Counted from the whole stretch's first letter, positions 7,461 to 54,561 are shown. The stretch is 63,280 nt of DNA, filler included, from Octopus bimaculoides (GCF_001194135.2; 5 parts of 4 records of this genome joined end to end with filler, not necessarily neighbours in it); one strand, 5' to 3'. A program made the numbers and translations. Notes: a model not told the origin generated them from the letters alone.

Positions 7461-7538
7461 GGCCTGTCTATGAGGTTACCCAGGGTTTCGCATCCATAAA
7501 GCACTTTACATCTTATCAGACCCTAATGGCCACTGGCC
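7461..7538 (-). ncRNA. Decayed hammerhead-like motif, family B, antisense in a PGAM5 intron
   Basis: Minus strand reads AGGGT-CTGATAA-GATGTAAAGTGCTTTATGGATGC-GAAACCCTGG-GTA-ACCT; homologous to 22824-22874 and 24366-24428; core G8 changed to A. Confidence 0.45.
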
Positions 7539-8689
7539 TGTATAACTACCTGAACCAGTGCAGAACGAGTATCTCAAGCCATTTAGAATAATTTAATTAG
7601 GGTAAGGTGTACCCTTGTCAGATATGTAGTCATGATGGGTAGACATCAAATTCACTTTACCCATGCTAGCATGGGTTGGATGATTTGACGGAGGACTGGT
7701 GAACCAGATGGCTGCACCAGGCTCCAATCTGATTTGGCAGAGTTTCAACAGCTGGATACCCTTCCTAATGCCAACCACTCCGAGAGTGTAGTGGGTGCTT
7801 TTTACGTGTCACCGGCACGAGGGTTAGGGTTAGGGTTCAGCAAAGTCAATCATAGAAGACTGAAATAAAAAAAAGTACGCATGGAAAGCAATTTTTTCGA
7901 CCAAACCATTCTCGATGGTGCCCTAACATGACTACAATCCAATGACTGAAACAATTAAAAAATAAAATAAAAAACAACACGCATATGAAATTATAAGATA
8001 AAGGTCGCAGTCTTATTTGTTTGGGTTAATGCGAACGAGATGGCAAACAAGATATTCTATCATAAGTAGTGTGAAAAATTACTAAAGGATTTTTTGCCAT
8101 CTGTTTTGTGTCGAAAAAACAAAACATAGGTGAAGGGAGATAATCAATATTAACTTCCTGTATGATTATTTCCCTTATGTTGTATGCTTTGCCAATCGCT
8201 GGTGTGTGTGTGTGTGTGTGTGTAGGCGCGGGCCTGACTGCGTGTTATAGGTTTCATATTCTGTTCTACTGCATGATACCTTGGGCAAGTGTATTTTATT
8301 TTATGTGGATCAAAATTATACAACAAACAAAAGACAGATAGGCGTGGGAGCAATAAACAGGCTTTGACGCACAAGGAAAATTGAAGAAATCTTTGACAAC
8401 CCCGGGCTGACTAAAGCATAGATGGAAACAAAAAGAAGCCCCTTGTATGTATGTGTGTTTGTGGTTTTCTCCTACCACTATTTGACAGCTGGTGTTGGTT
8501 TGTTTATGTCTCCCATATCTTGGCAGTTCGGCAAAAGAGATTGATAGAATAAGTAATGGGATTTAAAAAGTAAGTACTTGGATCGATTCGTTTGAGTAAA
8601 CCCTTTGAAAGCAGTGCTCCAGCATGACTACAGTCCAATGGCTGAAACAAGTAAAGGATAAAAGATATATACACATGCGTATATACTCT

Positions 8690-9430
8690 GGAAAGTCAGA
8701 GTCATTGCAAAGGATCCCAAGGTTTCAGAATGGTGCCATCAGAAGAGTTGTGCATGAGGACATCTAGTGTAAGTTGTATATAATGCAGAGGGGTCAGTTT
8801 ATGTTGGATGTGACAAAAGAGAACCGTTTGATCCATGGAAAGACCCTGCTAAACAAGTTAAAAAAGAGGTTGGAATTTTCTTTTTCTTTTTTTTTTTTTT
8901 TGTCTGGTTTAAAAAGTTCAGTGAAGGCCGAAAGGTAAACTGAAGGAATGACAGAAACCGAAATAGGTTTTCATGGTCAACCAGTGACTGGGATGGTTCT
9001 AGGAGTCGTCAGTAATGAGGGAGATGTCATTCCTCCTCACTTTTTTTCTTGGGGCTTATACAGAGGAGTTGGAGAAAGTTGTGAGGCCCTGGACAGACAG
9101 ACAGACTATGTCATGGAAGCCAGTACATCTTTCAACAAGACTCTGCACTGACTCTTAAGGCTAAGACATGGCTGCATGTCAGTCTCCATAACCATGTTCT
9201 CCCAGATATATAGCCTCCTAGTTTACCAGACCTCAATTCACTGTCCTACCATGTGTAGGGCTTAGTTGAGAGAGAGGTCAATCAACACCCCTGTAACACC
9301 ATACAATCCTTCAAGGCTGCTACAACCAGTGCAACGTCTAAAATTGATGAAGATCATCTGATTCAGGCATGTCGATGTATTGAAGCAGCCATCGATGCTA
9401 ACAATGGATTTATTGAATAAGTGTGATTCT
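8690..9430 (+). mobile_element. Tc1/mariner (DD37D/maT-like) transposase remnant
   Basis: MVLGVVSNEGDVIPPHFF and DI*PPSLPDLNSLSYHV*GLVEREVN (decayed WPPSSPDLNPLDY) with stops and frameshifts. Confidence 0.75.
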
Positions 9431-11719
9431 CAAGATTATTTGTACCAAATCATTTTCAAACATAGATTTTCTTTGATGAGCTATTCATCTTTTTCTAAAT
9501 TCATACAAATGACAAGATGGCTGCGAGTCTCTGGTTACTGGATGTGCCACTCTGAACTGGAAGCATCCAAATTAGTCTTGTGGAACCTACTTCATGTTAT
9601 CACACTTACATAGACAACTTGATGGCAGACATTGGCTTAGAGTGTATCAAGGATCTAGAGGCAGTGATGATGAACTGAGAAGAGTGGGGGATTGAATTTT
9701 GTTGCTGTGGGCTGGGTTCCAACCTAGCCGTAAAAAAAATTCAAATGACCTAAAAAAACTGACACACTCTACACATACACACAAAATATAATATATATAT
9801 ATATAAATATGTTCATTCAATTCCCATGCATACTAACACCCACTTTTTTCTGTCAAGGGCCTATATGCCCCAATATTAAACTGTTTTCTTCTGCCAACAC
9901 ATGGCGATCACTTTATAAGCTCATATATATAGAGACACCATACATGTGTTTGTGTGTGTGTGTGAGTATATATATAGTTGTTGTATTTACTAAAACTCCA
10001 GGCCACCCAATATCTTGTGGGTGGATTTGTTAAAAAAACTATACAAACTCTTCACACACACACGTACATACATGACTGTTGAATTGTATCACATGAATGA
10101 GAGAGGACTGCTTAGGATATGTTGTTGATTTATGAGTTTCAGTTAGGTGATATATTTGTTGGTGTGAATCATCATGATCATGGTCTTAAGTTTGAGTCTG
10201 CTCATTGCTTTGTCTTCTACTGTTGCTGAATAGTTGTTAATTTTTCTTTCTTGTCAGTGGTTATTTTTTGTGGGGTAGTGCTTAAGTTTCTTTATTTTTG
10301 TTGAAAGTAGGGGTTGTGGTGATTAAAAACTGGACCCCTTTATCGAGAAACATAAGTAAAATAAACACTACACAACAAAAAATAACATGACATAACAGAA
10401 AAATAATTACTAACCAACAAAAGCAAAACAATGAACTCACACCAAGCAAGAGGCCATACACTCACCAACAAATATAAAACACCATCAAACCATGTTGCAA
10501 CAGTGCCCACCTGAAGATTGTAATTGCATGAAACTCAAGTCACAAGATAAACAATATATGTGCATGTGTGAATGTTTGCACCCTGCAGATGCTTAAAAAT
10601 TTGCTAAATTACAATAAATTTGTGAAGGCACATGGTGCAGTGGTTAGAGCATTTGGGCTCACAATCATGAGATAGTAAGTTTGATTTTTGAACCAGGCTG
10701 TGTGTTGTGTTCTCGAGCAAGACACTTTATTTCACATTGCTCCAGTTCATTCAGCTGTAGAAATGAGTTGTGATGTCACTGGTACCAAGCTGTATCGGCC
10801 TTTGCCTTTTCCTTAGATAACATTGGTGGCATGGAGAGGGGAGGCTGGTATGCATGGACTCTACTGGTCTTTCATAAACAACCTTACTTGGACTTGTGCC
10901 TTGGAGGGGAACTTTTTACGTGCAATCCCATGGTCAGTCATGACTGAGAGGAGTCTTTATCCTCTTTACAATTGTTTTGTAGTCATTTCCCTTCCAACAA
11001 ATCACCTGAACTCAAGGCTGTTATAAAAGATGCCATGCAGTTGGATTGAACTTTGGACTCGTGATTGCAAAGGGAAACTCTTCACCATTTAGTTATATCT
11101 GCATTCATTAACAGTCAGTAGGTATCATGGTATCACACTCCAAACCAAAGTAAAGATAGTTTGCATCTCATAGTATAATATCTCTAATTTGTGTTCCTGC
11201 CATTTAATGCTCGCTGACTCATGACACCTAACTTAATATATGTCAGTGCCCCAGCAGGGTCTCAGCCTTAGAACTGCAATATATGAGAATGTATGGTGTG
11301 ATTGTGTGGTAAGAGGTTTGTTTCCCAACTACATGGTTCCAGGTTCAGTCCCACTGCATGGCACCTTGGGCAAATGTTTTCTACTATAGCCTTGGGCCGA
11401 CCAAAGCCTTGTGAGTGGACTTGGTAGGTGGAAACTGAAAGAAGCCTGTTGTATATGTGTGTGTCTGTGATTGTCCCCAACCACTGCTTAACAAGTGGTG
11501 TTGGTGTGTTTACATCCCCTGTAACTTAAAGAGACCTATAGAATAAGTACCAGGCTTTAAAAAAATATGTACTGGGGTAGGTCCTTTTCACTAAAAATTG
11601 ACCAAGGCAGAGCCCAGCCTGGCCACAGTCTATTGACTGAAACAGGTAAAAGGCAGGAGATAGATATAGCTGTTGTAAGCAATAGAACTAACATGTGTCA
11701 TTTCCTAACAATGCTGAGT

Positions 11720-12036
11720 TCAAGTTTCCTATTTACCTTGGTTCTTGTGCGGGTGGCACATGAGATGCACCATTTTGAGCGTGGCCGTTGCCAGTACCGC
11801 CTGACTGGCTCCTGTAGGATTTTCGAGCGAGATCGTTGCCAGTGCCCCTGGACTGGCTTGTGCGGGTGGCACATAAAAGACACCATTTCGAGCGTGGCCG
11901 TTTTCGTGCGGGTGACACGTAAAAGCACCCACTACACTCTCTGAGTGGTTGGCGTTAGGAAGGGCATCCAGCTGTAGAAACTCTGCCAAATCAGACTGGA
12001 GCCTGGTGTTGCCATCCGGTTTCACCAGTCCTCAGT
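11720..12036 (+). mobile_element. RTE LINE 3' UTR fragment with tandem stem-loop units
   Basis: Units of GCCAGT..ACTGGC..GGTGGCAC followed by AAAAGCACCCACTACACTCT..GAGTGGTTGGCGTTAGGAAGGGCATCC, as in 26099-26785. Confidence 0.8.
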
Positions 12037-12301
12037 NNNNNNNNNNNNNNNNNNNNNNNNNNNNNNNNNNNNNNNNNNNNNNNNNNNNNNNNNNNNNNNN
12101 NNNNNNNNNNNNNNNNNNNNNNNNNNNNNNNNNNNNNNNNNNNNNNNNNNNNNNNNNNNNNNNNNNNNNNNNNNNNNNNNNNNNNNNNNNNNNNNNNNNN
12201 NNNTTGTTGTTGTTCAGGTCAGTGCCTGGAATTGAACTTCAAATGTTGGGGTTAGTAGCCCACACTGAGGGCTACTAACCCCAAGATTCCAGGCAGTAAC
12301 T

Positions 12302-12347
<46 letters not shown>

Positions 12348-12349
<2 letters not shown>

Positions 12350-12492
12350 CATTGAAAAATACCTTAGGAATGAGAACCCAGGTTCGAAATTTCCCCAAGA
12401 CACCTAATGAAGGCTGGAGGGTATATAAACCAAAACGTTGTGTTAACAACAAACAAGATGAGGACAAATATCCGTCGAATGTAAATAATGTA
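12348..12492 (+). mobile_element. Penelope-like terminal fragment, family E, with inactivated HHR core
   Basis: Closely similar to 37901-38042 and also follows (AAT)n; reads GACAC-CTAATGA-AGGCTGG...AAACC-AAAAC-GTT-GTGTT. Confidence 0.65.
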
Positions 12493-14076: not shown

Positions 14077-14396
14077 CGTAGGTAAAGCAAATTTTAGAGG
14101 TAATACTCGATAATTGTAAGCACCTGTATATGCCAGATTGTGGCCGGGGTGAAAGAATAAATTAAAAACGTAAAAATAAAAACAGAACACAAAGGATTCT
14201 GCGGTACACGTGTTTCAAGCTTTATAGTCGTTGCATCATTATATTGGTATATAATTGATAGACAGGATGGTATAACGCTATCTTCAGCCGCAAATATATT
14301 CTTTCCCAAGTATTACATCACAAAGAAGAAGTCACCAAGAAAAAAGTAAAAGAGGGAGAAACATGAGAGATAAAAAGGGGGAGTCCACTTGGTATT
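14077..14396 (-). mobile_element. Penelope-like pseudo-LTR, family A (left inverted copy)
   Basis: 14157-14396 is the reverse complement of 16093-16330; the minus-strand 3' end runs into (TA)n; contains an HHR motif. Confidence 0.7.
14198..14294 (-). ncRNA. Type I hammerhead ribozyme motif, family A, canonical core
   Basis: Minus strand: TTTGCGG / CTGAAGA / TAGCGTTATA-44 nt-TATAAAGCTT / GAA / ACACGTGT (palindromic stem III) / A (GUA triplet) / CCGCAGA. Stem I is 7 bp with one G-U. Confidence 0.75.
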
Positions 14397-16092: not shown

Positions 16093-16326
16093 AATACCAA
16101 GTGGACCCTCACTTTTTATCTCTCATGTTTCTCCCTCTTTTTCTTTTTTCTTGGTGACTTCTTCTTTGTGATGTAATACTTGGGAAAGAATATATTTGCG
16201 GCTGAAGACAGCGTTATACCATCCTGTCTATCAATTATATACCCATATAATGATGCAACGACTATAAAGCTTGAAACACGTGTTCCACGGAATCCTTTGT
16301 GTTCTGTTTTTATTTTTACGGCTTTA

Positions 16327-16330
<4 letters not shown>
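16093..16330 (+). mobile_element. Penelope-like pseudo-LTR, family A (right inverted copy), HHR at 16194-16290
   Basis: TTTGCGG-CTGAAGA(16202-16208)...GAAAC(16273-16277)ACGTGT-T-CCACGG; GUU triplet and a stem I mismatch; ends in (TA)n. Confidence 0.7.
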
Positions 16331-16370
<40 letters not shown>

Positions 16371-17179
16371 GGTGAATTGGGATGTGTAACATGAAACATA
16401 TAAACTACACAATAAATGCAGTTAGCTAACTTTCTTCTTTGATGTTCTTTTATTGTATATCATTATTATACACACGCATGCACACACGTACCTCATTATT
16501 ATAGCAAGTGTGTGCTAATATGTATATAACCATCATCATTGTTTTTACTTCCATTTTTTTCCCATGTCAGAATGGAATGAGTGAGAGTTTGTTGAGACAG
16601 TTTTCTGCATGTCCTTATGTCATAAACTCTTGTTTTAAGTTTTATTTGTTACCCTAGTCTTTCACTTATTGAACTCTACAACAGTTGAACATATAATCTC
16701 GAGTGGGTAAATGTGTGACAAGCCTTGTATACACTGAAGACAAAATCTTCATTGGTGACAGTGACTTAAGAAACTCAGTTTACATATGTATATATATTCC
16801 AGGATGATGATAATGAGGAGGAGGGGGAGAAGTATCGATGCAGGAACACATCTTTATGAAGCTCAATCTTCTCAAATCTCATTTTACCATGAACTTGTGT
16901 TTTTTTTATCTATGTTTATTTTTAAATAAAAATTTAATTATGATTTAGTTGTTTACAAATATAGTATTGAATTCTTTGTTAATTCTATATAATTTTGTTT
17001 TAAATTAAATCTTAATGATCTGAACAATTTTACAAAATTTCTTCTAGTTTCAGTTATATGTGTTGTTCAGTTTTCTTGTAAAAATATTAATATACTTAAT
17101 GTCAGTGCATAACTGTTTCTTGAATAAATCAATACCAAATTATTGATTCAAATTTGTTTTAATCCATCTGACAAGTATA

Positions 17180-22628: not shown

Positions 22629-22885
22629 GGCCAGTTTATAGGGTCACCTTGGGTTTCTCACCATAAAGGGTACATTTATGGCATATTTTTGGACCCTAAC
22701 ACCTGTTGGCCTATGGGCCTCTTTAAAATATAGAGGAGGAAATCAAAGGGATATGATCCCCATTGTTTATATCTGTATCGTTTCCCCTCCGTATTCTAAA
22801 GAGGCTATAGGCCAACAGGTCTTAGGGTCTGAAGATAAAGGGTACTTTTATGATGAGAAACCCAGGGTAACCCTTTAAATTGGCC
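22629..22885. repeat. Foldback element, family B: imperfect inverted arms of about 110 bp, HHR motif in each arm
   Basis: Arms about 22629-22740 and 22770-22885. Right arm on +: AGGGT/CTGAAGA(22829-35)/hairpin/GAA/ACCCAGGGT/A/ACCCT. Left arm core decayed to CCAAAAA. Confidence 0.75.
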
Positions 22886-23706: not shown

Positions 23707-24365
23707 TATTATTTTATGTTTTTGTTCCATGGGTTGAACATTTGGGCTGAAACCAACAAGACAGCATTGTGCTCCACTGTCTGCTTTGATATATTTTTTT
23801 AATGGTTGGATGCATTCCTAACACCAGCGACTCCACAGCATGTACTGGGTGCTTTTCTTTTAATTTCTTTTGGTACCACTAGTACTTGTGAGATCACCAT
23901 GTAGCTTACGAGACTACAATCTCCGAGATATGTGGTTTTATGTGATTTTATTGTAAAAGATGTGAAGTTAAAATATGACAGAAGGGACCAGAGCAGAACA
24001 ACCTTTGGACTGTAGAGGGGTCACATGGCTGCACACATTTAAAAAAAAAAAAAGGGTGGTGGTGATTAATGTGCAATGGGTAAAAAGACATACCTGGAAC
24101 CATAAGTTTATCTTTAATATCCTTACCCATTCAGCTGTGCGTAACTGAATGGGCAAGAATATTAAAGAACCCCCATGATCTGGGAACATCTTAAATTCCA
24201 GGCCAGAAGTCTTCAGACCCTGATTACACTTCAGGAGATATCTGCAGATAGCAATCTAAGGGAGACAATCTTTTGTGCTTAACCCTTCTCCTTTGTGTGT
24301 TCAACAACTATCCATGTGGTATTTTCTTTCTCCACTCAAACGAAAGGTTATTGGCCATTGGCCAT

Positions 24366-24428
24366 TAGGGTCTGAAGACATGGTATAAAGCTAAGTGCTT
24401 TATGGACGCGAAACCCTGGGTAACCCCA
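24366..24428 (+). ncRNA. Type I hammerhead motif, family B
   Basis: GGGT/CTGAAGA(24372-78)/..ATAAAGC-TAAGT-GCTTTAT../GAA/ACCCTGGGT/A(24422)/ACCC. Base of stem II imperfect. Confidence 0.6.
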
Positions 24429-24596
24429 TAGACTGGCCATAACTATCTTTATCTAACTACTCTGCTGTGTACTTCTCTTTTGGATTTATGATTTACCAAC
24501 GATATATATATATATATATATACTATTTTACTATTTTAACTATTTAAAAATGTTTCAGCTGCAAAGCTGCAGTCATGCTGGAGCACCACCATTGAC

Positions 24597-26098: not shown

Positions 26099-26785
26099 TA
26101 GACCCAAGAAGACCTGGGATGAGGGGGTGAAGCGTGACCTTTGAACATTGGACCTCACCGAGGCAATGACAAGTCACCAAGACCTTTAAAGATATGTTGT
26201 ACTTGGAAGACTCGGCAAGCCAAGTGAGACCATGACCGTGGCATATGCCAGTGGTGTATAACCATCCCATTTAAGAGTACTTTTCAATCATTGGGCAATA
26301 AACTGTGCTTGTGAAGACCTGTTGAGTCAAGTGAAATCATTGTCATGGCTGATGACAGTACCACCAGATTGGATACCCATGCCAGTGGAACATAAAAAGC
26401 ACTATTCGAGCATGATCACTGCCAGTGTTGCCTGACTGGCTCCTGTGCTGGTGGCACATGGAAAACAACATTTGAGTATGGTCATTGCCAGTGCTGCCTC
26501 ACTGGCTCCTGTGCCGGTGGCATGTAAAAAGCACCATTTCAGCGTGGTCAATGACAGTACCGCCTGACTGGCCCTCATGCCGGTGGCACGTAAAAAGCAC
26601 CCACTACACTCTTGGAGTGGTTGGCGTTAGGAAGGGCATCCAGCTGTAGAAACTCTGCCAGATCAAACTGGAGCCTGGTACAGCCTTCTGGCTTGCCAGT
26701 CCTCAGTCAAAACTGGCCAACCCATGGCAGCATGGAAAGCAGATGTTAAAAGACGACGATGACGACGATGATGATGATGATGATA
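26099..26785 (+). mobile_element. RTE LINE 3' end with tandem stem-loop UTR and (GAT)n tail
   Basis: ..RPKKTWDEGVKRDL ORF end, then about 4 repeat units, then AGCATGGAAAGCAGATGTTAAA(GAC/GAT)n. Confidence 0.85.
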
Positions 26786-28029: not shown

Positions 28030-28478
28030 TGCTTATGAAGACCTATTGAGGCAAGTGAAATCAAATCAAAATTGCTGACATGGCCGATTACGGTGCCGCC
28101 TGACTGGCTCTTGTGCCAGTGGAATGTTAAAAGCACATCCAAGCATGATCGTTGCCAGGGCGACGGATTGGCTCCCATGCCGGTGGCACGTAAAAAGCAC
28201 CATTCAAGCGTGATTGTTGCTTGTGTCACCTTACTGGCACAAGTGCTGGTGGCACGTGAAAACAACATTCAAGCGTGGTCATTGCTAGTACCACTTCACT
28301 GGCTCCCGTGCAGGTAGCATGTAAAAAACACCTTTTGAGTGTGGTCATTGCCAGAACCGCCTGACTGGCACTCATGCCAGTGGCACACAAAAAGCATCCA
28401 CTACACTCTCAGAGTGGTTGGCATTAGGAAGGGCATCCAGCTGTAGAAGCCTTGCCAAATCAGACTGGAGCCAGGTGC
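28030..28478 (+). mobile_element. RTE LINE 3' UTR fragment with about 5 tandem units
   Basis: Same units and same AAGCATCCACTACACTCTCAGAGTGGTTGG tail. Confidence 0.8.
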
Positions 28479-29100: not shown

Positions 29101-30080
29101 GTATATATAGTCTGTCATACCGGCCATGATGAAATACCACAAGGTATAGAAAATATGAAATACCACAAGGTATAGAAAATACATATTCGCCTTTATATAT
29201 TTATATATTTAATCCTTTATATTGAACACTCAATATTTCATCTATTCAATAAGACATATTCCATATATTCAATAAGACATTCAATACTTTATTTCATAGT
29301 ACCATCCATTTTTATTTTATTTTATATTATATATTGTATATTATATTATATATTGTATATTCCATATTCTATNNNNNNNNNNNNNNNNNNNNNNNNNNNN
29401 NNNNNNNNNNNNNNNNNNNNNNNNNNNNNNNNNNNNNNNNNNNNNNNNNNNNNNNNNNNNNNNNNNNNNNNNNNNNNNNNNNNNNNNNNNNNNNNNNNNN
29501 NNNNNNNNNNNNNNNNNNNNNNNNNNNNNNNNNNNNNNNNNNNNNNNNNNNNNNNNNNNNNNNNNNNNNNNNNNNNNNNNNNNNNNNNNNNNNNNNNNNN
29601 NNNNNNNNNNNNNNNNNNNNNNNNNNNNNNNNNNNNNNNNNNNNNNNNNNNNNNNNNNNNNNNNNNNNNNNNNNNNNNNNNNNNNNNNNNNNNNNNNNNN
29701 NNNNNNNNNNNNNNNNNNNNNNNNNNNNNNNNNNNNNNNNNNNNNNNNNNNNNNNNNNNNNNNNNNNNNNNNNNNNNNNNNNNNNNNNNNNNNNNNNNNN
29801 NNNNNNNNNNNNNNNNNNNNNCACTGTGTATAAACTCTGTATTTGGAATGACCAATTTCAAAGACTTGGATTTTACTCATAGGGTGTTGGAATCTTAATA
29901 ATAGATTTACAAATGCAATAACCAATCTTAAAGACTATTGGATCTTACTCATAAGGTATTGGAATCTTATATGTATACTATTCTGCCTAAACATTAGATT
30001 TACAAATACAATATTCCTACATTCACTCTCTATTTCCTATCTTATCTAAATTAACTATTGCTTAACCATCCTCTCACACC

Positions 30081-30128
30081 GTCTCCGATGAAGAGATATA
30101 ATAAATATCCTGGAAACAGCTGTAAGAC
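30081..30128 (+). ncRNA. Type I hammerhead motif, family C, CCGAUGA core variant
   Basis: GTCT / CCGATGA(30085-91) / AGAGATAT-AATAA-ATATCCTG / GAA / ACAGCTGT (perfect palindrome) / A (GUA) / AGAC. Confidence 0.65.
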
Positions 30129-30465
30129 CTATTTATAAATGTTCTATAATGCACACAGCCTTGATTTTTTTTTATCTTATTACGAATAGTAAATCCCTAT
30201 ATAGATATATATAAAGTTAGCTGAGTTAGAGGTTAAAATAACCATCTAAGGGAAGGAAGTATTCATTATACTACAGGTATAGTACCTATGTTTAACCATG
30301 GGCATACATATGTAAGCATGTTCGTAAATTATGGGTAAAGACAAGGATAAACATGAGTTTATCAAGTATCAGAATTCAAAAAAGACAGAAAATGGAGAAA
30401 TATTGATGAACAACGATTGGCTTACATCAATTATTATTTATTAATTCAATACAAATAGACTGCAT

Positions 30466-32420: not shown

Positions 32421-32972
32421 AAGGAAATAAAAGAATATTCTTACAGAATATTCATCAGAAAGAAAGAAAAAAAAACCACATCAAAAATAAAGAAAAAGAT
32501 CAAGTTATTGTGAAAAAAAAAACAAGAAAAGAAACAAAAAGCCCAGAGCCACCGAAAAAACTCAAAGAAATCAGAACACATAAATTCCAATCAACTCTTG
32601 TAAGCGTCAAATGTTATCCATTGAGGAGAAGGTCAAACTCCTGAATATATTTATTCTAGTCATGTGACATATAAATAAGTTGTAAAATAAATATTGATTC
32701 TAGTTTGTCATAGCTTGTTACAGAAATAGTTAGGAAGATGTTGAAAATAGATAAAAGAAAATATACATTGACAGAAAGTTATGATGTAATATTTTGTCTG
32801 GTAAATCTGGGAGGGGCTTTGTTGCACTCTGTATGTGTGTGTGTGTTTGTATATATATATATATATATACCGGAGTAAGCACATGAAATGTGCAACAAGG
32901 TGGAAAAAAGAGTACTCAAATACCAGAGGTAGAGTAATATGCTTTATTTAAAAGCAGCAGAAATATAACAAA

Positions 32973-33018
32973 AAAACCGTTACTCTGAGTTTCACGTTCC
33001 CGTTCATCGGACAGTTTT
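32973..33018 (-). ncRNA. Type I hammerhead motif, family D, complete fold
   Basis: AAAACTGT / CCGATGA / ACG-GGAA-CGT / GAA / ACT-CAG-AGT / A / ACGGTTTT. Stem I 8 bp, GNRA-capped stem II, GUA triplet. Confidence 0.75.
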
Positions 33019-33034
33019 GTTAGCCATTTCTAAC

Positions 33035-33080
33035 AAAACTGTCCGATGAACGGGAACGTGAAACTCAGAGTAACGTTTTT
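33035..33080 (+). ncRNA. Type I hammerhead motif, family D, mirror copy
   Basis: Identical to the minus copy except G>T at 33076, which puts a C-U mismatch in stem I; predicted cleavage 3' of A33072. Confidence 0.7.
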
Positions 33081-33301
33081 TTTGTTATATTTCTGCTGCT
33101 TTTAAATAAAGTATATATATATATATATATACATACATGTGGCTGTGTGGCAAGTAGCTTGCTTTCCAACCACATGGTTCCCAGTTCAGCCCCACTACGT
33201 GGCACCTTGGGTAAGTATCTTCTACTAAAGCCTCGAGCTGACCAAAGCTTTGTGAGTGGATTTAGTAGACAGAAACTGAAAGAAGCCCTTCATATATGTG
33301 T

Positions 33302-34059: not shown

Positions 34060-34551
34060 TTGATGGGCGACGCCAGTGCCGCCAGGCTAGCTCCCATGCC
34101 AGTGGCACGTAAAAGGCACCGTATGAGCATGGTCGATGCCAGTGCCACCTTACTGGCTCCCATGCTGGTGGCACGTAAAAGGCACCGTACGAGCATGGTC
34201 GATGCCAGTGCCACCTTACTGGCTCCCATGCTGGTGGCACGTAAAAGGCACCGTATGAGCATGGTCAATGCCAGTGCCACCTGACTGGCTCCCATGCTGG
34301 TGGCATGTAAAAAGTACCATTTGAGCGTGGTCATGCCAGTACCACCTGACTGGCCCCCGTGCTGGTGGCACATAAAAAGCACCCACTACACACTCAGAGT
34401 GGTTGGCATTAGGAAGGGCATCCAGGTGTAGAAACCTTGCCGGATCAGATTGTAGCGTGGTGCAGCCTCCTGGCTTGCCAGTCCGCAGTCAGACCATCCA
34501 AAACCCATGCCAGCATGGAAAGTGGACGTTAAACGATGATGATGATAATGA
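34060..34551 (+). mobile_element. RTE LINE 3' UTR with 66-bp tandem stem-loop array and (GAT)n tail
   Basis: GCCAGT unit starts at 34072, 34138, 34204, 34270, 34335 (GCCAGTACC in the last); standard RTE tail follows. Confidence 0.85.
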
Positions 34552-34860: not shown

Positions 34861-35694
34861 ACACACACACACAGAGGCATACACACAAACAGATTCATAC
34901 ACAGACCAACAGCGACACATACACACACGTATGCAGACATATCTGTGAACCTGTTTATTTGCCATATATCTCATGAGACATACCATACCAGCATCCTTTC
35001 ACTTAGAAATAGGTGTAAGTAGGTGTGTGAGGGAAGGAGAGAGAGAGAGGGGGGAGAGAGAGGGGGAGGAAGAGAGGGGGGAGAGAGGGTGATGTGTATG
35101 TGTTAGTGTGCGAATGCACACGCGAGCGTGCATGCATGTGTGTGTGTGTGTGTGAATGCGTGTGTGTGTGTGAATGCGTGTGTAAGTGTAAGATATACCA
35201 TTTCTACACATCATTGATGTGTGATAGGGAATATCAGAAATTTATCAAAGTGTGTGATAATTGCTATCAAGAATATATCAAAAAACAGCTGACACCCCAT
35301 TTTAAGTTTGATAAATGCAAGCACGAGTGTTTATATATGTATGTATATATATATAATCAAAATAAGCAACAAGAATATCCAAAGTTAAAGCAGTACGATC
35401 GTTTCATGCGACTCCATTTATTTAAGCAATGTGAACATTACATCAAATATAAAATGTAGAGCAATCTTCAGTTGCACAAAGATATAGAAATTTACTGAGA
35501 TTTCATTTCAACAGAAAGGCTTAGCCTGTATGGTCTGGCTAAGTCGAAAGGGTTTTTTTGTATTCTTCCTTTCTACTTGGAGAGTTTAAGTATAGTTATG
35601 AAAATATGTCCTTCTGTTGAAATGAAATTTCAGTAAATTTCAGTAAATTTCTATATCTTTGTGCAGCTGAGGATTGTTCTGCATTTTATATTTG

Positions 35695-35839
35695 ATGAGG
35701 AGGATAGCTGCGTGAAAAAGTGCCACACCCTAACAGTTGAGGGAACCCGTGGAAGAGGTAGGCCCAGGAAGACCTGGGCTGAGGTGGTGAGGCAAGACCT
35801 TCGTACATTGGGCCTCACCGAGGCGATGACTACGGACCG
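35695..35839 (+). mobile_element. RTE LINE ORF C-terminal fragment
   Basis: DEEDSCVKKCHTLTVEGTRGRGRPRKTWAEVVRQDLRTLGLTEAMTTD; runs into a gap. Confidence 0.85.

Positions 35840-37849: not shown

Positions 37850-37850
<1 letters not shown>
36328..37850 (+). mobile_element. R4/Dong retrotransposon, 5'-truncated (copy 2, different subfamily)
   Basis: YRYLG...RLYLPRAQGGRGL...ILAAQDQSL; CCHC knuckle CRFC..ETIDHLISGC; RLE motif KPDIIIKD..CLLIDLSIP..K.SKYKDL; in-frame stops; (TAA)n on both sides. Confidence 0.9.
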
Positions 37851-37900
<50 letters not shown>

Positions 37901-37903
<3 letters not shown>

Positions 37904-38042
37904 TCGAAAAATACCTTAGGAATGAGAACCCAGGTTCGAAATTTCTCCAAGACACCTGATGAAGGCTGGAGGTTATATCAGCCGAAACGCGTTAACAACA
38001 AACAAAATGAGGACAAATATCCGTCAAATGTAAATAATGTAA
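37901..38042 (+). mobile_element. Penelope-like terminal fragment, family E, HHR core at 37956-37993
   Basis: CTGATGA-A-GGCTG-10 nt-CAGCC-GAA-ACGCGT-T; core and stem II intact, stem I partner lost. Confidence 0.7.
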
Positions 38043-43584: not shown

Positions 43585-46500
43585 TATATATATGGGAGAA
43601 TATACAAAAAATAACAACAGACGAGGACAGGTGGTGTANNNNNNNNNNNNNNNNNNNNNNNNNNNNNNNNNNNNNNNNNNNNNNNNNNNNNNNNNNNNNN
43701 NNNNNNNNNNNNNNNNNNNNNNNNNNNNNNNNNNNNNNNNNNNNNNNNNNNNNNNNNNNNNNNNNNNNNNNNNNNNNNNNNNNNNNNNNNNNNNNNNNNN
43801 NNNNNNNNNNNNNNNNNNNNNNNNNNNNNNNNNNNNNNNNNNNNNNNNNNNNNNNNNNNNNNNNNNNNNNNNNNNNNNNNNNNNNNNNNNNNNNNNNNNN
43901 NNNNNNNNNNNNNNNNNNNNNNNNNNNNNNNNNNNNNNNNNNNNNNNNNNNNNNNNNNNNNNNNNNNNNNNNNNNNNNNNNNNNNNNNNNNNNNNNNNNN
44001 NNNNNNNNNNNNNNNNNNNNNNNNNNNNNNNNNNNNNNNNNNNNNNNNNNNNNNNNNNNNNNNNNNNNNNNNNNNNNNNNNNNNNNNNNNNNNNNNNNNN
44101 NNNNNNNNNNNNNNNNNNNNNNNNNNNNNNNNNNNNNNNNNNNNNNNNNNNNNNNNNNNNNNNNNNNNNNNNNNNNNNNNNNNNNNNNNNNNNNNNNNNN
44201 NNNNNNNNNNNNNNNNNNNNNNNNNNNNNNNNNNNNNNNNNNNNNNNNNNNNNNNACTTCAATTTATTTAAGTAATGTGAGCATTACCTTAAATGCAATA
44301 TGAAGAGCAATCTTCAGCTGCACGAAAAAATGTAGGAAAAAAAGACATATTACAAATGTGGCAACATATTAAAACCAAGTGGGAGAGAGCAGAGGAAGAA
44401 TATATAAGTCCATCTTGACATATATATATATATATATATATATACGACGGGCTTCTTTCAGTTTCCGTCTACCAAACCCACTCACAAGGCTTTATAGTAG
44501 AAGACATTTGCCCAAGATGCCACGCAGTGGGACTGAACCCGGAACCATGTGGTTGGTAAGCTACTCACCACACAGGCACTCTTACGCCTATGTAATGTAA
44601 TATTTATCTACATGCATATACACTCACAGGCATATTCACACGCACACAAACACACCCTCTCTCTATCTAACACACACACACACACCATCACATGTGTGTA
44701 TGCAATTTGTATCTTTAGAGTTTGACTCTACCAAGTTATTCTTATACAACAAAGTATATCAATCGATCTGAGGCTCCACTTTGGACGATAGGTACGCAAG
44801 GTGCAGTCAGTCGCTCCTTGGAATGATCGAACATGAATCCTTATGGTTGCGAAGCAAACTCTTTCGCGTGTCATTCTTTACCCTAATTTTCCTCGGTTTC
44901 ATTTTTTTTTTTCCTTTCTTATTTTAAATTTAATTTCTGTTGTTGTCGTTCTTTATGGCATTGTTATTGTTTGACGTCGTCGGAGGCGGCGCTGTCATCG
45001 TTGTCGTCGGAGGCGTCGTTGTCATCGTCATCGTTGTCGATCGTTTATCTCTTCGCTGCAAACCATAAATCCTACGTTCTTCCCATCCAATAAATTTTAT
45101 CATCTTTTCACCCAAACATATCAAAAGAAAAAGGAACGAATACAACAACCAGACAAAACTATAACAACTTTCAACAGTTTTATTTCTTTAAACTACACCC
45201 CGCCGACTTTATCTTGATTAGACACACACACAGCCACACACACTCACACATACATTCACACACATACTTAGATGCTTACTTACACACACTCACGCACGTG
45301 TACATATGTGCATGGTTGTAAGTGTATGTCTGTGTGAGATCACATAGAGAAAAGCTCCCCTTCTCTCTTTCTCTTTCTCACAAACACAGAAACTAAACAG
45401 AAACTCTCTCTCTCATACACACACACAAACGCACGTACACACAAGCGTATGCACAGTCGTGTGGGGGAATATGCTACGTACATACACGTACGCACGCACA
45501 TTCAAAGACATACACGTGCGTTCTGACACACATGCGCGCGTACACAGCATACGCATACATATGCATATACCCACTTACATACAAAATTGGCGCGCGCACA
45601 CATATTTTCACACGCATACACCCACCTCCATATATATATATACATACGCATATCCAGATATAGATATACATGTATATCCATCTACACTGATATACATACA
45701 AGCATAATTACATGTATTCACACACATACGTACACATGCGCGTACATATGGGCACGCGCATAAGCACACGCGCGCGCATACATATTCACACAAATTTACG
45801 AACACTCACTGATGACGAGCAACAAACAAGCACATGCACACACACACACATATACATACGCATACACACACACGCATGCATACACCGACACACACACACA
45901 CACGCATACACAAATACAAGCCAACGCAAGTACATGCACATACGCTCGCTAGCATTAGACACACATCTGCACGAGCACACACATGGACATGCATTTGCAT
46001 ACCAAAACACACACACACACATACATACAGACACACACACGCACACATACACACTCACAGACGCTCAAGCATTAGACACACATCTGCACGAGCACACACA
46101 TGGACACACGCATTTGCATACTAAAACACACGCAGTTACACTCACATACTTACACACACACTCACACACTCTCACACACACACACACACACGTATACAAA
46201 CACACAAATGCACATGTATACATACAAACAATAAAACTGACAGCCAGACAGCCAGACAGATAAACAGACAGACTTACAGACGCAAAACGTTATTCCTTTC
46301 AAAGAACTGCACGTGCCCTAACTTCCTTTAAAAAAAAAGCAAACAAAAAGCAAAAACACTTTCTTTTTATAGCGTATACACTCTCCTTCTTCTTCTTCTT
46401 CTTCTTCTTCTTCTTCTTCTTCTTCTTCGTCCTCCCCCTCCTCCTTCCACTCCTGATTTTTCTCTCTANNNNNNNNNNNNNNNNNNNNNNNNNNNNNNNN

Positions 46501-48925: not shown

Positions 48926-49114
48926 TGTCGTCTAGATGAAAGAAAGTGCGAGCCACTGCATAATATCCCTTCATATCTGACATGCAAGAAACAGCAGCTA
49001 CGTCTGTCTTAAATCATACACTGACAACTTTAAGAAAAAAAATGGGTGGAAGACACATTGGTTAATGTCGGTACAATTACACAAAAGAATGTATTTTGTA
49101 ATTATTACTACCAT

Positions 49115-49145
<31 letters not shown>

Positions 49146-49516: not shown

Positions 49517-49578
<62 letters not shown>

Positions 49579-49931: not shown

Positions 49932-49978
<47 letters not shown>

Positions 49979-49984
49979 AGCACT

Positions 49985-50640
49985 ATTATTTCTAAATCTC
50001 TCAGCGCTCTTTTGAGTTTCTTGCCGTGGTGTAGATTCATCTGAGACCTTGGTCAGCAGGAGGTGAAGTTATTTATTGAAAACATCAACTCCCACGCCAT
50101 GCAGATCTCTCAAATCTTTTGGCACGATATTAAATCGCTGTAGGCCTTTGAATCCCAAGTTATTGCTGTACCTGATCCTCGATCTAGACCTTATAGGCGG
50201 GACATTTTGAAATGTACAGTGACGTGCAGTTCGGGCGCTGGTTTAGATTTCGATGCTAAACTTTGGTGCCAACCCTTCGAGGATTTTCATTACGTTTATC
50301 ACTGCATATCTCTCCCGTTTTCCCTCCAAGGAGTAGAGTTGCAATCTTCTTAGCATGCCACCACTGAAATGCCTCTAGTTCCGCTATTAATTTGACACTA
50401 TGGGGTAACTACAGTTGAGAACATTAGTCAAGAAGGCTGACGACAATTATTCTCCATAGTACCTGCATAATTATCTGGTCTCATGTTCTGAAGGTTCTCA
50501 GAATCCATCCGGCCATTTGCCTGCACATTACCACATTCTGTGGATATGTATAATGAAGTGCCGCTGCTTATATCAGTCCCCAGATCACGCACTGTATTTG
50601 ACTCTGAGATAGCCGCTCCTTTTGGTCTAAAGTATTTTAG
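49985..50640 (-). mobile_element. CR1-like LINE RT C-terminal fragment
   Basis: LRRLQLYSLEGKRERYAVI..KILEGL..NLGFKGLQRFNIVPKDLRDLHGVGVDVF. Confidence 0.8.
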
Positions 50641-50699
50641 TTACGGATGTCAGCTCAAGCTGATTGATACAGAAACACTTGGAATTTTCTTGCATTAAA

Positions 50700-52640
50700 T
50701 TGCATGTTTTCTGCAGCTCATTTATATATCGTATCTAGGTCTTTCTGTAGATTACACAAGTCGGCATAATTTTCTATATTTAAATGTCTACATAACTTTT
50801 CAAAGCAATTTTTTACTCTGATTTCAGATCTGCTATTAGTTTTTCTCATCACGTCTAGATTTTCTGTAATAAAGCTTTGGGGTGTTTTTTTTTTCTGTAT
50901 TACGGTATCAGAGAATCAGATGACAGAATCAATGTCTACATAACTTTTTAAAACAATTTTTTACGCTGATTTCAAATCTGTTATTAGTTTTTTCTCCATC
51001 ACGTCTAGTTTTTCTGTAATACATCTTTGGGTTTTTTCCTTTATTATGGTATCAGAGAATCAGATAACAGTGATTACGATTTATTTTCCTCAACAAAATA
51101 GATTGCAATAAACCAATGCTGACCTAATATTAGTAAAAGTAAAATAACAGCAAGTATACAGTTTATTAAACAGTTGTTGGCAACTCTGACGAACAACGTG
51201 ACCTTGAAAACGATTGCTAACTGGTGCCCTTGTGTTGGCTTAGTAGTTCTAGAGGTCAGTCGTTGGTACATAAAGATGTAAGTGCGTGAACAACCTAGAC
51301 ATATTCTGCTATATTTGTGGCAGGTGTGTTGTTATGAAGCAGAGACAAAATATAACTGATCTTGTAAAGAATCTATACCTCGCTTATTTTGATGCTAAAC
51401 TCGGTGATGAAGACAAACCTTGGGCTCCACACAAAGTATGTCGCATTTCTGCGGAAGGGCTGAGACTCTGGAAAGCCAGTAAGAAAAGAAAAAAGAAATG
51501 CCGTTTCGAATACCAATGGTGTGGCGAGAGCCGAATAACCACGTTTACGATTGTTATTTCTACATGACTAAAGTTGACGGATACAGTGCAAAAACTAGAC
51601 ATAAGATAGTGTATCATAGTATTCCCTCGGCCTTACAGCCTATTGCACATTGGGCTGACATTCCAGTTCCTCTCCCTCCCCACTTGTTTTAAAGAATGTT
51701 ACATCAGGTAGTGATGAAGAAGACAAATATGAAGAAGGTGATGACTACAATCCTAACGAAATCGAAAGTCTGCTGTTATTTACACAGGAAGGGCTCAATG
51801 ATTTTGTGAGAGATTTGAACCTACCAAAGGATGCAGCGGAACCTCTTGGTTCTAGGCTAAAAATGGAAAAGCTTTTGTTACCGGGAAACTTCTTCTCTTG
51901 GTATTGTCAGAGGAAACACGAGTTGTTACCATTCTTTACTGAAGGTGAATCAGTGGTGTTTTGCTATAATATTCCAAACTTGCTGAATTGTTTTGAGTTT
52001 GAGAGCAACCCCTCGAAATGGAAGCTATTCATTGATTCCTCCAAAGGGAGATTGAAGGCTACCTTGCTACACAATGGAAAAAAGTATTCATCCATTCCAG
52101 TGGTACATTCCGTACAACTAAAGGAGACATGAAAATGTAAAAAAAAAATTTTATTAAATATAAAATATGCAGAATACCACTGACAAGTGTGTGAAAATTT
52201 TCGTAATTATGTGCATACTTTTAGGCCAGTAGGAAGGCTACACAAAAATGCTATGTTTCTTATGTGAATGAGACAGCAGAACTAAAGAAAAGCACTGGAT
52301 GGTTAAAAACTGGCCACAAGGGAGAAGTTTGTTACCTGGACCCAAAAACATTCTGCACAAACCCTTGGTTGAATGTACAAAAGTACTGCTACTGCCCTTG
52401 CATATCAACCTGGGTTTGATGAAACAGTTCGTTAAATCTTTGCCTGCAGATTGACCGTGTTTGCAATAACTCTAAAAAAAAATTACTAAATATAACCAGT
52501 GAGAAAATTAGAGTTGGTCTCGACATTCGTAAACTAATGAAAGTTATGAGAAATCCATGAATGAATCTCAAAAGTAGGCATGGGTGAGCTTCAAGTGTGT
52601 TGTCGAGAACTTTTTGTGCAAGTTTTCCTATCGTCGGTGT
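50700..52640 (+). mobile_element. Chapaev3-like (CMC group) DNA transposon remnant
   Basis: KCVNNLDIFCYICG, WAPHKVC, PMVWREP.NH..DCYF, LNDFVRDLNLPK..GSRL, WKLFIDSS, LLPLHINLGLMKQFVKSL; 148-bp subterminal tandem repeat at 50783-51075. Family assignment from memory of these motifs. Confidence 0.65.
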
Positions 52641-53062
52641 AGCTCATAAATGTGGTTGTCTGGGGTAAGTGATGGCACGTATATTGTATTGAGAGTTTCT
52701 TGCCACTATATATACAAAATCTTATCTAAATGAGACATATTAGTCAAATATCTTCTACTATGGCCCCTGATCAACCAAAGCCTTGTGAGCGAATTGGTTG
52801 GCGCCTACTTATACATACACATATATCATTATATGCATGCATATATACACACACAAAACACACAAACACATATATGTGTGTGCGTGTGCGTGTGTATGTG
52901 TGTGTATAGATATGTACATATATATAGGTCTGTATATATGCGTGTGCATGTGTATTTGTATATATGTATGTATGTGTCGAAACAAATGTCATGATTAATA
53001 ATAGATACTTGTTTTTTCCATCTTCCGTCTTCTATTTACTATAGATAGAGAGAGAGAGAGAA

Positions 53063-53093
<31 letters not shown>

Positions 53094-53150
53094 AAGAGAA
53101 AGAGATAGAGAGAGATAGTTAGATAGACAGACAGACAGACAGACAGATAA

Positions 53151-53212
<62 letters not shown>

Positions 53213-53357
53213 TTCTTTTATTAGCCACATAGGGCTCAGCGAAGATGGGACAAATACNNNNNNNNNNNNNNNNNNNNNNNNNNNNNNNNNNNNNNNNNNN
53301 NTTAATTAATTAANNNNNNNNNNNNNNNNNNNNNNNNNNNNNNNNNNNNNNNNNNNN

Positions 53358-53397
<40 letters not shown>

Positions 53398-53417
53398 AAG
53401 AATGGGCCATTGCGCCT

Positions 53418-53460
<43 letters not shown>

Positions 53461-53962
53461 TATTGTTGTTGCTATTACTACTGCTGCTGCTACTAGTGCT
53501 CGCGGTGCTACTGAGGCTGGTGTAATGCATTCCGTAAGTTTCATTGTCGTCTGCTTACTAATTGAATTTATTCTTAGTACCTTATAAGCAAAACACCTGT
53601 TTGGGTGTGAATGTGTGTGTGTGTGCCTGTATGAATGCGTGCGTATATGTGTGCGTGCCTCTGTGTGTGTTTGTGTGTGTGTGTGTGTGTGTGGTTGTGT
53701 ATGTGCATGTGTGTATGCGTGACGTGTATAGTTATTTGGGAAATCATAATTGACTGTAACCAGGAATTGAATGTAAAGTTGTTTTTAATCTGGTACCAAT
53801 GGTCTTTTGTCTGTTCTCATTGTCGTCATAACTGTTATCGTCAGCATCATTGTCATCGTCGTCATCGCATCATCGTCATCGTCATCATCGTCATCATCGT
53901 CATCATCGTCATCATCACATGCATCAAAATTTTCATAAATATTAATATTACAAACGAAAAGA

Positions 53963-54561
53963 AAATGTATACCTTTCTATGTGGTTAGCACAAAAAGACC
54001 GTTATACATTCGCATCAAAGAACATCTGAACACGAGAGCCTCCTCCTTCAGAAAACATCTAGACATGCTGGAACACCGATAAAAGCATAAGTCACAATTG
54101 AGGCCAATGAAAGAAATTTGGGTAATCTAAGAATTAAGGAAGCTATCCTCATAGACAGACTAGGGCCCCAAGTAAACAACAGGCTGGAGGTTGGCAATCA
54201 ATATATTATTTAGCTACATCTGAAGGAAAAAAAAGGAAACTGCACGTATAATACATAACTTAGAAGCAGCGCTGCGGATGCGCCAACATACACGAGCTTG
54301 AAACAAGGCCACCCTCATGCACTTCTCATGAGGAATTCCGGAAGGAGCTTCGTGATACCACTGCAGAGACTCTTCCGGGGTAAAAAAAAAATTCAGTAAC
54401 CGTTCGAAAACCGATTATAGCAGTGACTCGATCAATTTCTAGCGATATCTGAAGAAGGAATTTTTATATTCCGAAATATTATTATTATATCAGACTATGG
54501 ATAATTAAATTATAACAGTTATTATAGACCACTCTGCATTGTTGTGCCATTCATGTCACGT
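53963..54561 (+). mobile_element. Penelope-like element 3' end: GIY-YIG remnant plus terminal repeat with HHR (family F)
   Basis: FYVVSTKRPLYIRIKEHL (YIG-T-R-L-R-EH), frameshift, LRIKEAILIDRLGPQVN*; HHR at 54444-54491; ends in (TA)n. Confidence 0.8.
54444..54491 (+). ncRNA. Type I hammerhead motif, family F
   Basis: GATAT / CTGAAGA-A / GGAAT-TTTTAT-ATTCC / GAA / ATA-TTAT-TAT / T / ATATC; AUU triplet, weak AU-rich stems. Confidence 0.6.

What the first reader, a model, noticed from the sequence alone, without database searches (positions are those of the whole stretch)
7461..54491. About six distinct hammerhead-bearing repeat families within 47 kb
Seen: about 12 motifs with the order stem I / C(U,C)GANGA / stem II / GAAA / stem III / NUH / stem I prime. 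Stem III differs by family but is palindromic or nearly so in families A-E: ACACGUGU (A), ACCC-W-GGGU (B), ACAGCUGU (C), ACUC-A-GAGU (D), ACG(C)GU or ACGU (E); F has an AU-rich AUA/UAU stem. Stem I pairs independently in each family (UGCGG/CCGCA, AGGGU/ACCCU, GUCU/AGAC, AAAACUGU/ACGGUUUU, GACAC/GUGUU, GAUAU/AUAUC), which amounts to cross-family covariation. Inference: if this density is typical, the genome holds a very large, probably unannotated ribozyme repertoire hidden in repeats labelled unknown or MITE.
Basis: partly seen in the sequence, partly recalled or inferred. Interest (0 to 1): 0.75.

Follow-up and report, generated by a model that had tools for sequence, protein, structure and literature searches.

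The report
Seven octopus Penelope-retroelement hammerhead tails
The hammerhead-ribozyme motifs are real, but they are the broken-off tail ends of seven families of Penelope-like jumping genes in an octopus genome, a known arrangement; the family founders likely used the motif to cut their own RNA in pairs, most copies are decaying, and cutting has not been shown here.

Summary
The 12 motifs in six families are present and exceed shuffled controls; a seventh family (G, 3 pieces) was missed. "Within 47 kb" is a packing artefact: four unlinked stretches on three contigs. Only 4 of 15 pieces pass my full descriptor. Walking upstream in the genome tied every family to its own Penelope-like element (PLE) endonuclease: five Hydra-type (A, B, C, D, G) and two with CCHH-type endonucleases (E, F). 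Copies share a 3' end and are variably 5'-truncated, often with an inverted copy. An unselected 684-kb sample gives 19 canonical-core motifs against 0.3 shuffled: about 56,000 genome-wide (33,000-88,000), in many families. This is the published class of minimal, palindromic-stem-III PLE hammerheads; one octopus family is already in print. RNA-seq showed no ends at predicted cut sites. One oddity: family E carries a tRNA-like module about 30 nt behind its stop codon, and short copies pile up at that module's start, so the element may launch its own SINE-like derivative. This scan noted octopus PLE hammerhead tails and the tRNA-headed repeat before, on other DNA; the coding parent found here qualifies that reading.

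The parts
14158..14327 (-). Family A PLE 3' end with intact hammerhead (C3 at 14287; stem III ACACGUGU; about 60-nt stem II)
   Evidence: Hydra-type endonuclease upstream in relatives
16162..16331 (+). Family A 3' end, stem I broken (C3 at 16202), ends in (TA)n; divergent from the 14287 copy
7443..7542 (-). Family B 3' end, degenerate core and stem II (C3 at 7519)
22629..22714 (-). Family B inverted partner copy, core lost
22800..22885 (+). Family B 3' end (C3 at 22829), weak stem II, followed by (TA)n
24342..24467 (+). Family B 3' end (C3 at 24372), stem II closing pairs mismatched
30045..30170 (+). Family C 3' end with descriptor-intact hammerhead (C3 at 30085, C4 variant, stem III ACAGCUGU)
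   Evidence: endonuclease link in 4 loci
32936..33023 (-). Family D 3' end, intact hammerhead (C3 at 33010, C4 variant); 100% identical to many other copies (young family)
33024..33116 (+). Family D inverted partner copy (C3 at 33043); the pair forms the MITE-like palindrome
35347..35495 (-).
   Evidence: endonuclease link in 4 loci
35643..35697 (+). Family G inverted partner, 5' half only
44259..44339 (-). Family G partial copy cut off by an assembly gap
12205..12487 (+). Family E copy: inverted piece of tRNA-like head, head remnant, (AAT)n, hammerhead with two core mutations (C3 at 12403)
37850..38036 (+). Family E 3' end from (AAT)n; hammerhead (C3 at 37956) with 3-nt deletion at the cut site
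53963..54210 (+). Broken GIY-YIG endonuclease remnant of family F, upstream of its hammerhead in the window itself
54409..54565 (+). Family F 3' end with descriptor-intact hammerhead (C3 at 54449), ends in (TA)n

Best explanation
The motifs are minimal type I hammerheads sitting near the 3' ends of seven families of Penelope-like retroelements (PLEs), and the window holds 5'-truncated, mostly decaying copies that were likely written into the genome by each family's own reverse transcriptase and GIY-YIG endonuclease. Shown: each family's hammerhead lies downstream of its own endonuclease on the same strand; copies share a 3' end about 80-175 nt past core position C3 and have staggered 5' ends; inverted partner copies are common; Hydra-type families often end in (TA)n. 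Inferred from the PLE literature: reverse transcription starts at the RNA 3' end at an endonuclease nick and usually stops early, so the hammerhead-bearing tail is the most copied part; in the founder elements the self-complementary stem III pairs between two tandem copies and the dimer cuts the precursor RNA slowly. Family-specific palindromes would favour same-family dimers (inference). The divergent pairs in the window are sense and antisense on any one transcript and would form long hairpins rather than active dimers (inference).
For: Same-locus endonuclease-to-hammerhead links: A 2, B 9, C 4, D 2, E 26, F 12, G 4 loci, all 59 cognate, none cross-family (the loci were fetched by walking, so cognate pairs are favoured). 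RT pieces upstream: F (RVT_1 E 9e-7; E 0.0025 by reference), B (YRDD), D (L429), E (L440 holds RT, endonuclease, tRNA-like head and hammerhead in order). CxCX5C linker in A, B, C, G and D (L416, L432), the Hydra-clade mark (PMC8557442 section 11). Common 3' end and staggered 5' ends in 30 loci per family. (TA)n within 200 nt of C3 in A 14, B 13, C 11, D 28, F 9, E 0 of 30, background 12%. Stem III self-duplex -7.4 to -12.1 kcal/mol in A, B, C, D, G while adding at most 1.6 kcal/mol as a monomer hairpin. Core substitutions 70 of 2721 (2.6%) against flank 642 of 13735 (4.7%); CpG sites diverge faster than cores in all seven families, as for neutral decay after insertion.
Against: No cleavage was shown. 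Three paired-end RNA-seq runs of one study gave no pile-up of read ends at the predicted cut site of E or D (fragmented, apparently unstranded libraries are weak for this). RT cores were not reached for A, C and G. Stem III self-duplex is weak in E (-1.7) and unfavourable in F (+1.3). C and D carry C4 as the founder state (49 of 53, 41 of 42), a change said to lower activity considerably in vitro (PMC3088659 passage). Pfam did not recognise most Hydra-type pieces; that assignment rests on motifs and on a by-eye comparison with the published Hydra-1_Obim protein. Core-versus-flank counts are not independent events and are confounded by base composition; for B and E the difference is not significant.
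Confidence: 0.9

Rival explanations
1. The short copies of family E are a SINE-like element of their own: RNA polymerase III would start at the tRNA-like module inside the parent PLE's 3' UTR and the short hammerhead-bearing RNA would be copied in trans by the PLE enzymes.
For: tRNA-like head with an A box at position 8 and a B-box-like stretch (consensus recalled); weak tRNA model match (14.2 bits, E 4.5). Of 20 copies that reach the head start, 15 stop within -17..+2, against 16% expected from the truncation rate inside the head (p 1e-8). In RNA reads 8 of the 15 joints shown fall at 1495-1504 (head start 1497) and depth halves there. No T4 run from the head to the element end in 5 of 5 copies printed. 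E is the commonest family (9 copies in 684 kb).
Against: The head is a fixed part of the coding element: 28 of 30 endonuclease-bearing copies have it about 30 nt behind the stop codon, and 5 of 30 head-bearing copies run on upstream, so no separate origin is needed. The native sequence at the head start is an imperfect hairpin of about 10 bp that could itself stop or turn reverse transcription. ARAGORN found 0 tRNAs in 8 loci; no tRNA match at E<=0.01 in 10 loci. The missing T4 run is not significant by itself.
Confidence: 0.35
2. The families are non-LTR retrozymes: non-coding tandem units of a few hundred bases that replicate through circular RNA.
For: Type I hammerheads with a palindromic stem III occur in such units (PMC7229834, abstract start in listing; bioRxiv 10.64898/2026.07.22.740005). 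Long non-coding stretches flank the motif in A and D.
Against: No hammerhead lies in a tandem array in the window; every family continues upstream into an endonuclease gene; copies are 5'-truncated rather than unit-length.
Confidence: 0.04
3. The palindromes (such as D at 32936-33116) are MITEs of DNA transposons and the hammerhead-like strings are incidental.
For: D forms a near-perfect palindrome of about 150-180 nt.
Against: Each arm is a 5'-truncated copy of the same PLE 3' end; junction positions vary between loci; single-arm copies run upstream into a Hydra-type ORF; the motif excess over shuffles is large.
Confidence: 0.02
4. The motifs form a host-maintained ribozyme repertoire with cellular functions.
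For: Tens of thousands of descriptor-conformant motifs; the families are present in RNA-seq reads.
Against: Many copies fail the descriptor (intact: A 19 of 34, B 3 of 49, C 30 of 53, D 35 of 42, E 28 of 75, F 17 of 35, G 5 of 9); 76-80% of laid reads run on into unlike flanks, on both strands, as for passive read-through.
Confidence: 0.04

Closest known systems
Minimal hammerheads (min-HHR) in pLTRs of metazoan Penelope-like elements (Cervera and de la Pena 2014, PMC4209133; parts 1-2 of 4 read)
   Same: Type I, short stem I, extra nucleotide after A9, long stem II, absent or small palindromic stem III, many sequence families per genome, mostly single truncated copies, opposite-strand pairs 100-700 bp apart, U3-A8 covariant cores.
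   Different: No octopus data in the parts read; the count estimated here (about 56,000) is above the 2,000-9,000 reported for schistosome, coelacanth and Xenopus, but the descriptors differ; C4 as founder state in C and D; stem II of about 60 nt in A and G.
Hydra-clade PLEs, including Hydra-1_Obim of Octopus bimaculoides (Craig et al. 2021, PMC8557442; section 11, passages, File S1 rows, File S2 table, alignment snippets)
   Same: C-terminal GIY-YIG, CxCX5C linker, CxxC and CxH motifs, (TA)n insertion, hammerhead with 4-bp palindromic stem III (D's stem III equals that of Penelope-3_HM; C's is of the Hydra-1_aMil and Penelope-1_NV type); B's RT resembles Hydra-1_Obim by eye.
   Different: None of A, B, C, D, G has the hammerhead listed for Hydra-1_Obim, so they are further families; 3' UTRs are long (hammerhead 0.6-1.5 kb or more behind the endonuclease match), whereas published Hydra elements are generally under 3 kb in all.
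Penelope/Poseidon-type (E) and linker-bearing Neptune/Nematis-type (F) PLEs
   Same: RT with YVDD, C-terminal GIY-YIG with CCHH-like residues, hammerhead near the 3' end.
   Different: E has a tRNA-like module and (AAT)n between stop codon and hammerhead, which I did not find described; the clade of F is not resolved.
Schistosome Sm-alpha/Sj-alpha SINE-like hammerhead repeats (seen only as passages and references in review PMC6765202)
   Same: Small-RNA-type promoter followed by a hammerhead in a repeat (compare family E).
   Different: In E the module lies inside a protein-coding PLE and carries a minimal, not canonical, hammerhead.

Membership tests
Type I hammerhead ribozyme | Core C3-N-G5-A6-N-G8-A9 / G12-A13-A14 / A15.1-U16.1 / H17 in type I order | tested here: met
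   Majority sequence of all 7 families passes; 4 of 15 window pieces pass
Type I hammerhead ribozyme | Stems I and II pair, independently in each family | tested here: met
   Stem I 4-8 bp and stem II 3-9 bp in family majorities; own pairing 5 of 10 against swapped 2 of 84
Type I hammerhead ribozyme | Match to an Rfam hammerhead model | tested here: not met
   None among the 150 matches shown of 183 at E<=10; none for an E copy in a 411-nt scan
Type I hammerhead ribozyme | Self-cleavage after H17 | not testable with these tools
   RNA-seq lays showed no end pile-up at the site; library type is weak for this
PLE minimal hammerhead | Palindromic, loopless or tiny stem III suited to dimers | tested here: met
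   Self-duplex -7.4 to -12.1 kcal/mol in A, B, C, D, G; weak in E, unfavourable in F
EN+ Penelope-like element | GIY-YIG endonuclease upstream of the hammerhead, same strand | tested here: met
   59 cognate locus links over 7 families; Pfam GIY-YIG below cut-off for F (E 0.006) and C (E 0.027)
EN+ Penelope-like element | RT N-terminal to the endonuclease | tested here: inconclusive
   Seen for B, D, E, F; only thumb/linker region reached for A and C, not looked for in G
EN+ Penelope-like element | Common 3' end, 5' truncation, inverted 5' copy | tested here: met
   (inverted piece near 31 of 42 E tails in the focal loci)
EN+ Penelope-like element | Full-length element with tandem pLTRs | tested here: inconclusive
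   ORF start downstream of the hammerhead in F loci L169, L170, L178; no full-length copy examined
Hydra clade (A, B, C, D, G) | CxCX5C linker | tested here: met
Hydra clade (A, B, C, D, G) | CxxC and CxH in the endonuclease, no CCHH | tested here: inconclusive
   Both in A, D, G; CxxC only in the C copy; B copy truncated; absence of CCHH judged by eye
Hydra clade (A, B, C, D, G) | Insertion into (TA)n | tested here: met
   A 14, B 13, C 11, D 28 of 30 against 12% background; G not counted
Hydra clade (A, B, C, D, G) | RWK and DKT N-terminal motifs; RT phylogeny | not tested
   N-termini not fetched; no reference proteins usable in the tools
Non-LTR retrozyme | Non-coding tandem units, each with a hammerhead | tested here: not met
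tRNA-derived SINE (short E copies) | tRNA-related head with A and B boxes | tested here: inconclusive
   A box at position 8, tRNA model 14.2 bits, below gathering score 29; ARAGORN 0 of 8
tRNA-derived SINE (short E copies) | 5' end defined by the head, independent of a coding element | tested here: inconclusive
   15 of 20 stop at the head start, but the head is inside the coding parent
tRNA-derived SINE (short E copies) | Pol III transcription | not testable with these tools
   needs occupancy or 5'-end data

The most novel reading that the evidence does not exclude
Family E is a protein-coding Penelope element that carries a tRNA-derived Pol III promoter in its own 3' UTR and so launches its own SINE: a roughly 280-nt hammerhead-bearing RNA that the parent's RT and endonuclease have copied to tens of thousands of places. 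That would be a SINE mobilised by a PLE rather than a LINE, born inside its autonomous partner, within the largest and most varied PLE hammerhead set estimated so far (about 56,000 motifs, at least 13 families).
Probability: 0.3. Interest if true: 0.62.

Novelty: new member of a known kind. Interest (0 to 1): 0.32.

Why it matters
It explains a large class of short octopus repeats and MITE-like palindromes as PLE tails, adds at least five Hydra-type and two other PLE families to the one octopus Hydra family in print, and gives a natural panel of family-specific palindromic stem III sequences on which the open question of what PLE hammerheads do (dimer cleavage, family specificity, tolerance of C4) can be tested in one pooled assay. 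The class itself is known, so the surprise is small. The tRNA-like module inside family E's 3' UTR is the one part that could be new.

Tried and rejected
Rfam scans: no hammerhead among 150 shown of 183 matches, none. The repeat finder on the whole window was swamped by N runs and microsatellites. Pfam missed most Hydra-type and E pieces. ARAGORN found no tRNA in 8 E loci. Run search: no RNA holder listed. RNA lays: no end pile-up at predicted cut sites of E or D. I first read E as a free-standing tRNA-headed SINE; some searches showed the head inside a coding PLE. Long ORFs upstream of E in L385, L392, L393 and L405 had no Pfam match and the three translated look like unrelated flanks. Core-like strings at 16734, 51186 and 10511 had no relatives in the held loci and were dropped. 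Lunse et al. 2017 is not held and is cited only through review PMC6765202. Searches found no paper describing these seven families or a tRNA-like module inside a PLE 3' UTR; subscription papers, Repbase and Dfam were not searchable, and bioRxiv supplements were not seen.


Full report
Window and organism. The window is a pack of five stretches with 57,644 non-N bases. Searches of G000 place the motif-bearing stretches on C16 near 52.6 Mb (A, B, one E), C27 near 8.37 Mb (C, D, two G pieces), C16 near 12.1 Mb (E, one G piece) and C4 near 10.2 Mb (F). The '47 kb' span is therefore not a genomic interval. The closest named proteins are from Octopus bimaculoides, so I treat this as an Octopus genome.

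Observation. The 12 copies in six families are there, and a seventh family, G, adds three pieces. Three descriptor settings gave 3, 6 and 5 hits against means of 0.04, 0.19 and 0.09 in 300 local dinucleotide shuffles, none of which reached the observed count; a test on cores plus palindromic stem III alone gave 10 against 0.39. Stem I, not required in that test, pairs over at least 4 bp in 5 of 10, against 2 of 84 swaps between families. One of the ten (16734) is not a repeat in the held loci and was dropped. Only 4 of the 15 pieces pass the full descriptor; the others have core, stem or register damage. Rfam lists no hammerhead among the 150 matches shown of 183.

Density. I took 78 stretches of 10 kb at fixed steps on contigs C1-C16 (684,459 non-N bases). 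The descriptor gave 25 hits against a mean of 2.3 in 20 shuffles; with the canonical C3-G8 core only, 19 against 0.3, in 18 of 78 stretches, that is 27 per Mb (16-43) or about 56,000 in the genome (33,000-88,000). The window's 4 hits do not differ from this rate (p=0.28). The 19 hits fall in 13 clusters (counted). The family mix of the window is not typical: the sample held 9 E, 3 G and 1 C copy and no A, B, D or F. The extrapolation rests on the large contigs only and counts motifs, not active ribozymes.

What the families are. In 30 best-matching loci per family, copies share a 3' end about 80-175 nt past C3 and have staggered 5' ends; inverted partner copies are common. Walking upstream led in every family to a C-terminal GIY-YIG endonuclease on the same strand: 59 same-locus links (A 2, B 9, C 4, D 2, E 26, F 12, G 4), none between families; the walking favours cognate pairs. 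F's endonuclease remnant lies in the window itself at 53963-54210. A, B, C, D and G have the CxCX5C linker that defines the Hydra clade (PMC8557442 section 11), and A-D end in (TA)n more often than background (14, 13, 11 and 28 of 30 against 12%). RT cores were seen for B, D, E and F, not for A, C and G. E has no linker zinc finger (Penelope/Poseidon type) and F has a cysteine linker (Neptune or Nematis type); both are motif readings by eye. Pfam support is weak: RVT_1 and GIY-YIG hits lie below the curated cut-offs, and most Hydra-type pieces have none.

Ribozyme anatomy and selection. The majority sequence of each family passes the descriptor. Stem III forms a self-duplex of -7.4 to -12.1 kcal/mol in A, B, C, D and G but adds at most 1.6 kcal/mol as a hairpin; it is weak in E (-1.7) and unfavourable in F (+1.3). 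Core positions carry fewer substitutions than flanks (70 of 2721 against 642 of 13735; p<0.05 in A, C, D, F, G, not in B and E; CpG sites and columns over 25% divergent were left out; events are not independent). Copies decay: intact in A 19 of 34, B 3 of 49, C 30 of 53, D 35 of 42, E 28 of 75, F 17 of 35, G 5 of 9 (sets biased to copies like the window's). C4 is the founder state in C and D; a passage of PMC3088659 says U4C lowers activity considerably in vitro yet suffices for a viroid in vivo.

RNA. Three paired-end runs of one study, under the same species label as index holders, were laid on E and D. Thousands (E) and hundreds (D) of reads lie on both strands about equally, 76-80% run on into unlike flanks, and no pile-up of ends occurs at either predicted cut site. 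This fits passive read-through of many copies and neither shows nor excludes cleavage.

Family E. Its tail is preceded by (AAT)n and a 75-nt tRNA-like head with an A box at position 8 and a weak tRNA model score (14.2 bits, E 4.5); ARAGORN found nothing in 8 loci. I first read this as a free-standing SINE, as two earlier notes of this scan on other genomes do. But 28 of 30 endonuclease-bearing copies have the head about 30 nt behind the stop codon and 26 of 30 have the hammerhead further on, and L440 holds RT, endonuclease, head and hammerhead in order. Among 30 head-bearing copies not selected for upstream sequence, 10 begin inside the head, 15 within -17..+2 of its start and 5 further upstream; 15 of 20 is far above the 16% expected (p 1e-8), and 8 of the 15 RNA joints shown fall there (19 more not shown). 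A Pol III start would explain this; so would the native hairpin at that point. I give the Pol III reading about one in three.

Mechanism. Shown: position, linkage, truncation pattern, inverted copies, decay. Inferred: target-primed reverse transcription from the 3' end by each family's enzymes, leaving hammerhead-bearing stumps; slow dimer cleavage of tandem founder transcripts, as reported for other PLE motifs (PMC4209133; review PMC6765202 passages). The divergent pairs in the window would pair as long hairpins rather than form active dimers (inference).

Known work. PMC4209133 (parts 1-2 of 4 read) describes this class: many families per genome, extra base after A9, palindromic stem III, opposite-strand pairs, thousands of copies, low activity. 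PMC8557442 (passages, section 11, supplement rows and File S2) lists hammerheads of the same build for 14 Hydra magnipapillata families and for Hydra-1_Obim of O. bimaculoides; none of the seven families here has that listed hammerhead. bioRxiv 10.64898/2026.07.22.740005 (parts 1-2 of 5) links retrozymes to PLEs. Lunse et al. 2017 was not held. Searches found no description of these families or of a tRNA-like module in a PLE 3' UTR; repeat databases were not searchable. Earlier notes of this scan reached the PLE-tail reading on other pieces of this genome; they are not independent evidence.

Verdict. Real, abundant and genome-wide, but new members of a known kind. Interest 0.32; the E module is the lead worth testing.

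Noticed in passing
L240:3889+, L257:8358- (unselected sample): Hammerhead-like motifs with the U3-A8 covariant core plus C4 and long palindromic stem III; single hits, families not checked.
   Followed up: no
L018, L032, L053, L126, L038, L223, L235, L256, L364 and others: Further hammerhead families beyond A-G (30 clusters in 1.5 Mb of mostly selected loci, 12 with two or more members; a G-related family behind its own Hydra-type endonuclease).
   Followed up: partly
window 26380-26601, 28178-28371, 34063-34383: Three arrays of a 66-nt tandem unit of one family, without a hammerhead hit.
   Followed up: no
window 50783-51070: Two-copy 148-nt tandem repeat, no hammerhead hit.
   Followed up: no
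window 16734+, 51186+, 10511+: Core-like strings without stem I support and without relatives in the held loci.
   Followed up: partly
P0001, P0006: Octopus protein records named 'PH domain-containing protein' and 'SCO-spondin-like' contain PLE RT pieces (65% and 63% identity), probably gene models fused with retroelement fragments.
   Followed up: no
L154 and L177, upstream of the F copy, opposite strand: ORF of 209-280 aa that looks like a mariner-type transposase (label recalled from motifs, no family scan).
   Followed up: no
L381-L410 versus L001-L030: Family E has at least two subfamilies (differences in the head's 3' part and before the hammerhead) and a lineage with a 3-nt deletion at the cut site that still spread.
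   Followed up: partly
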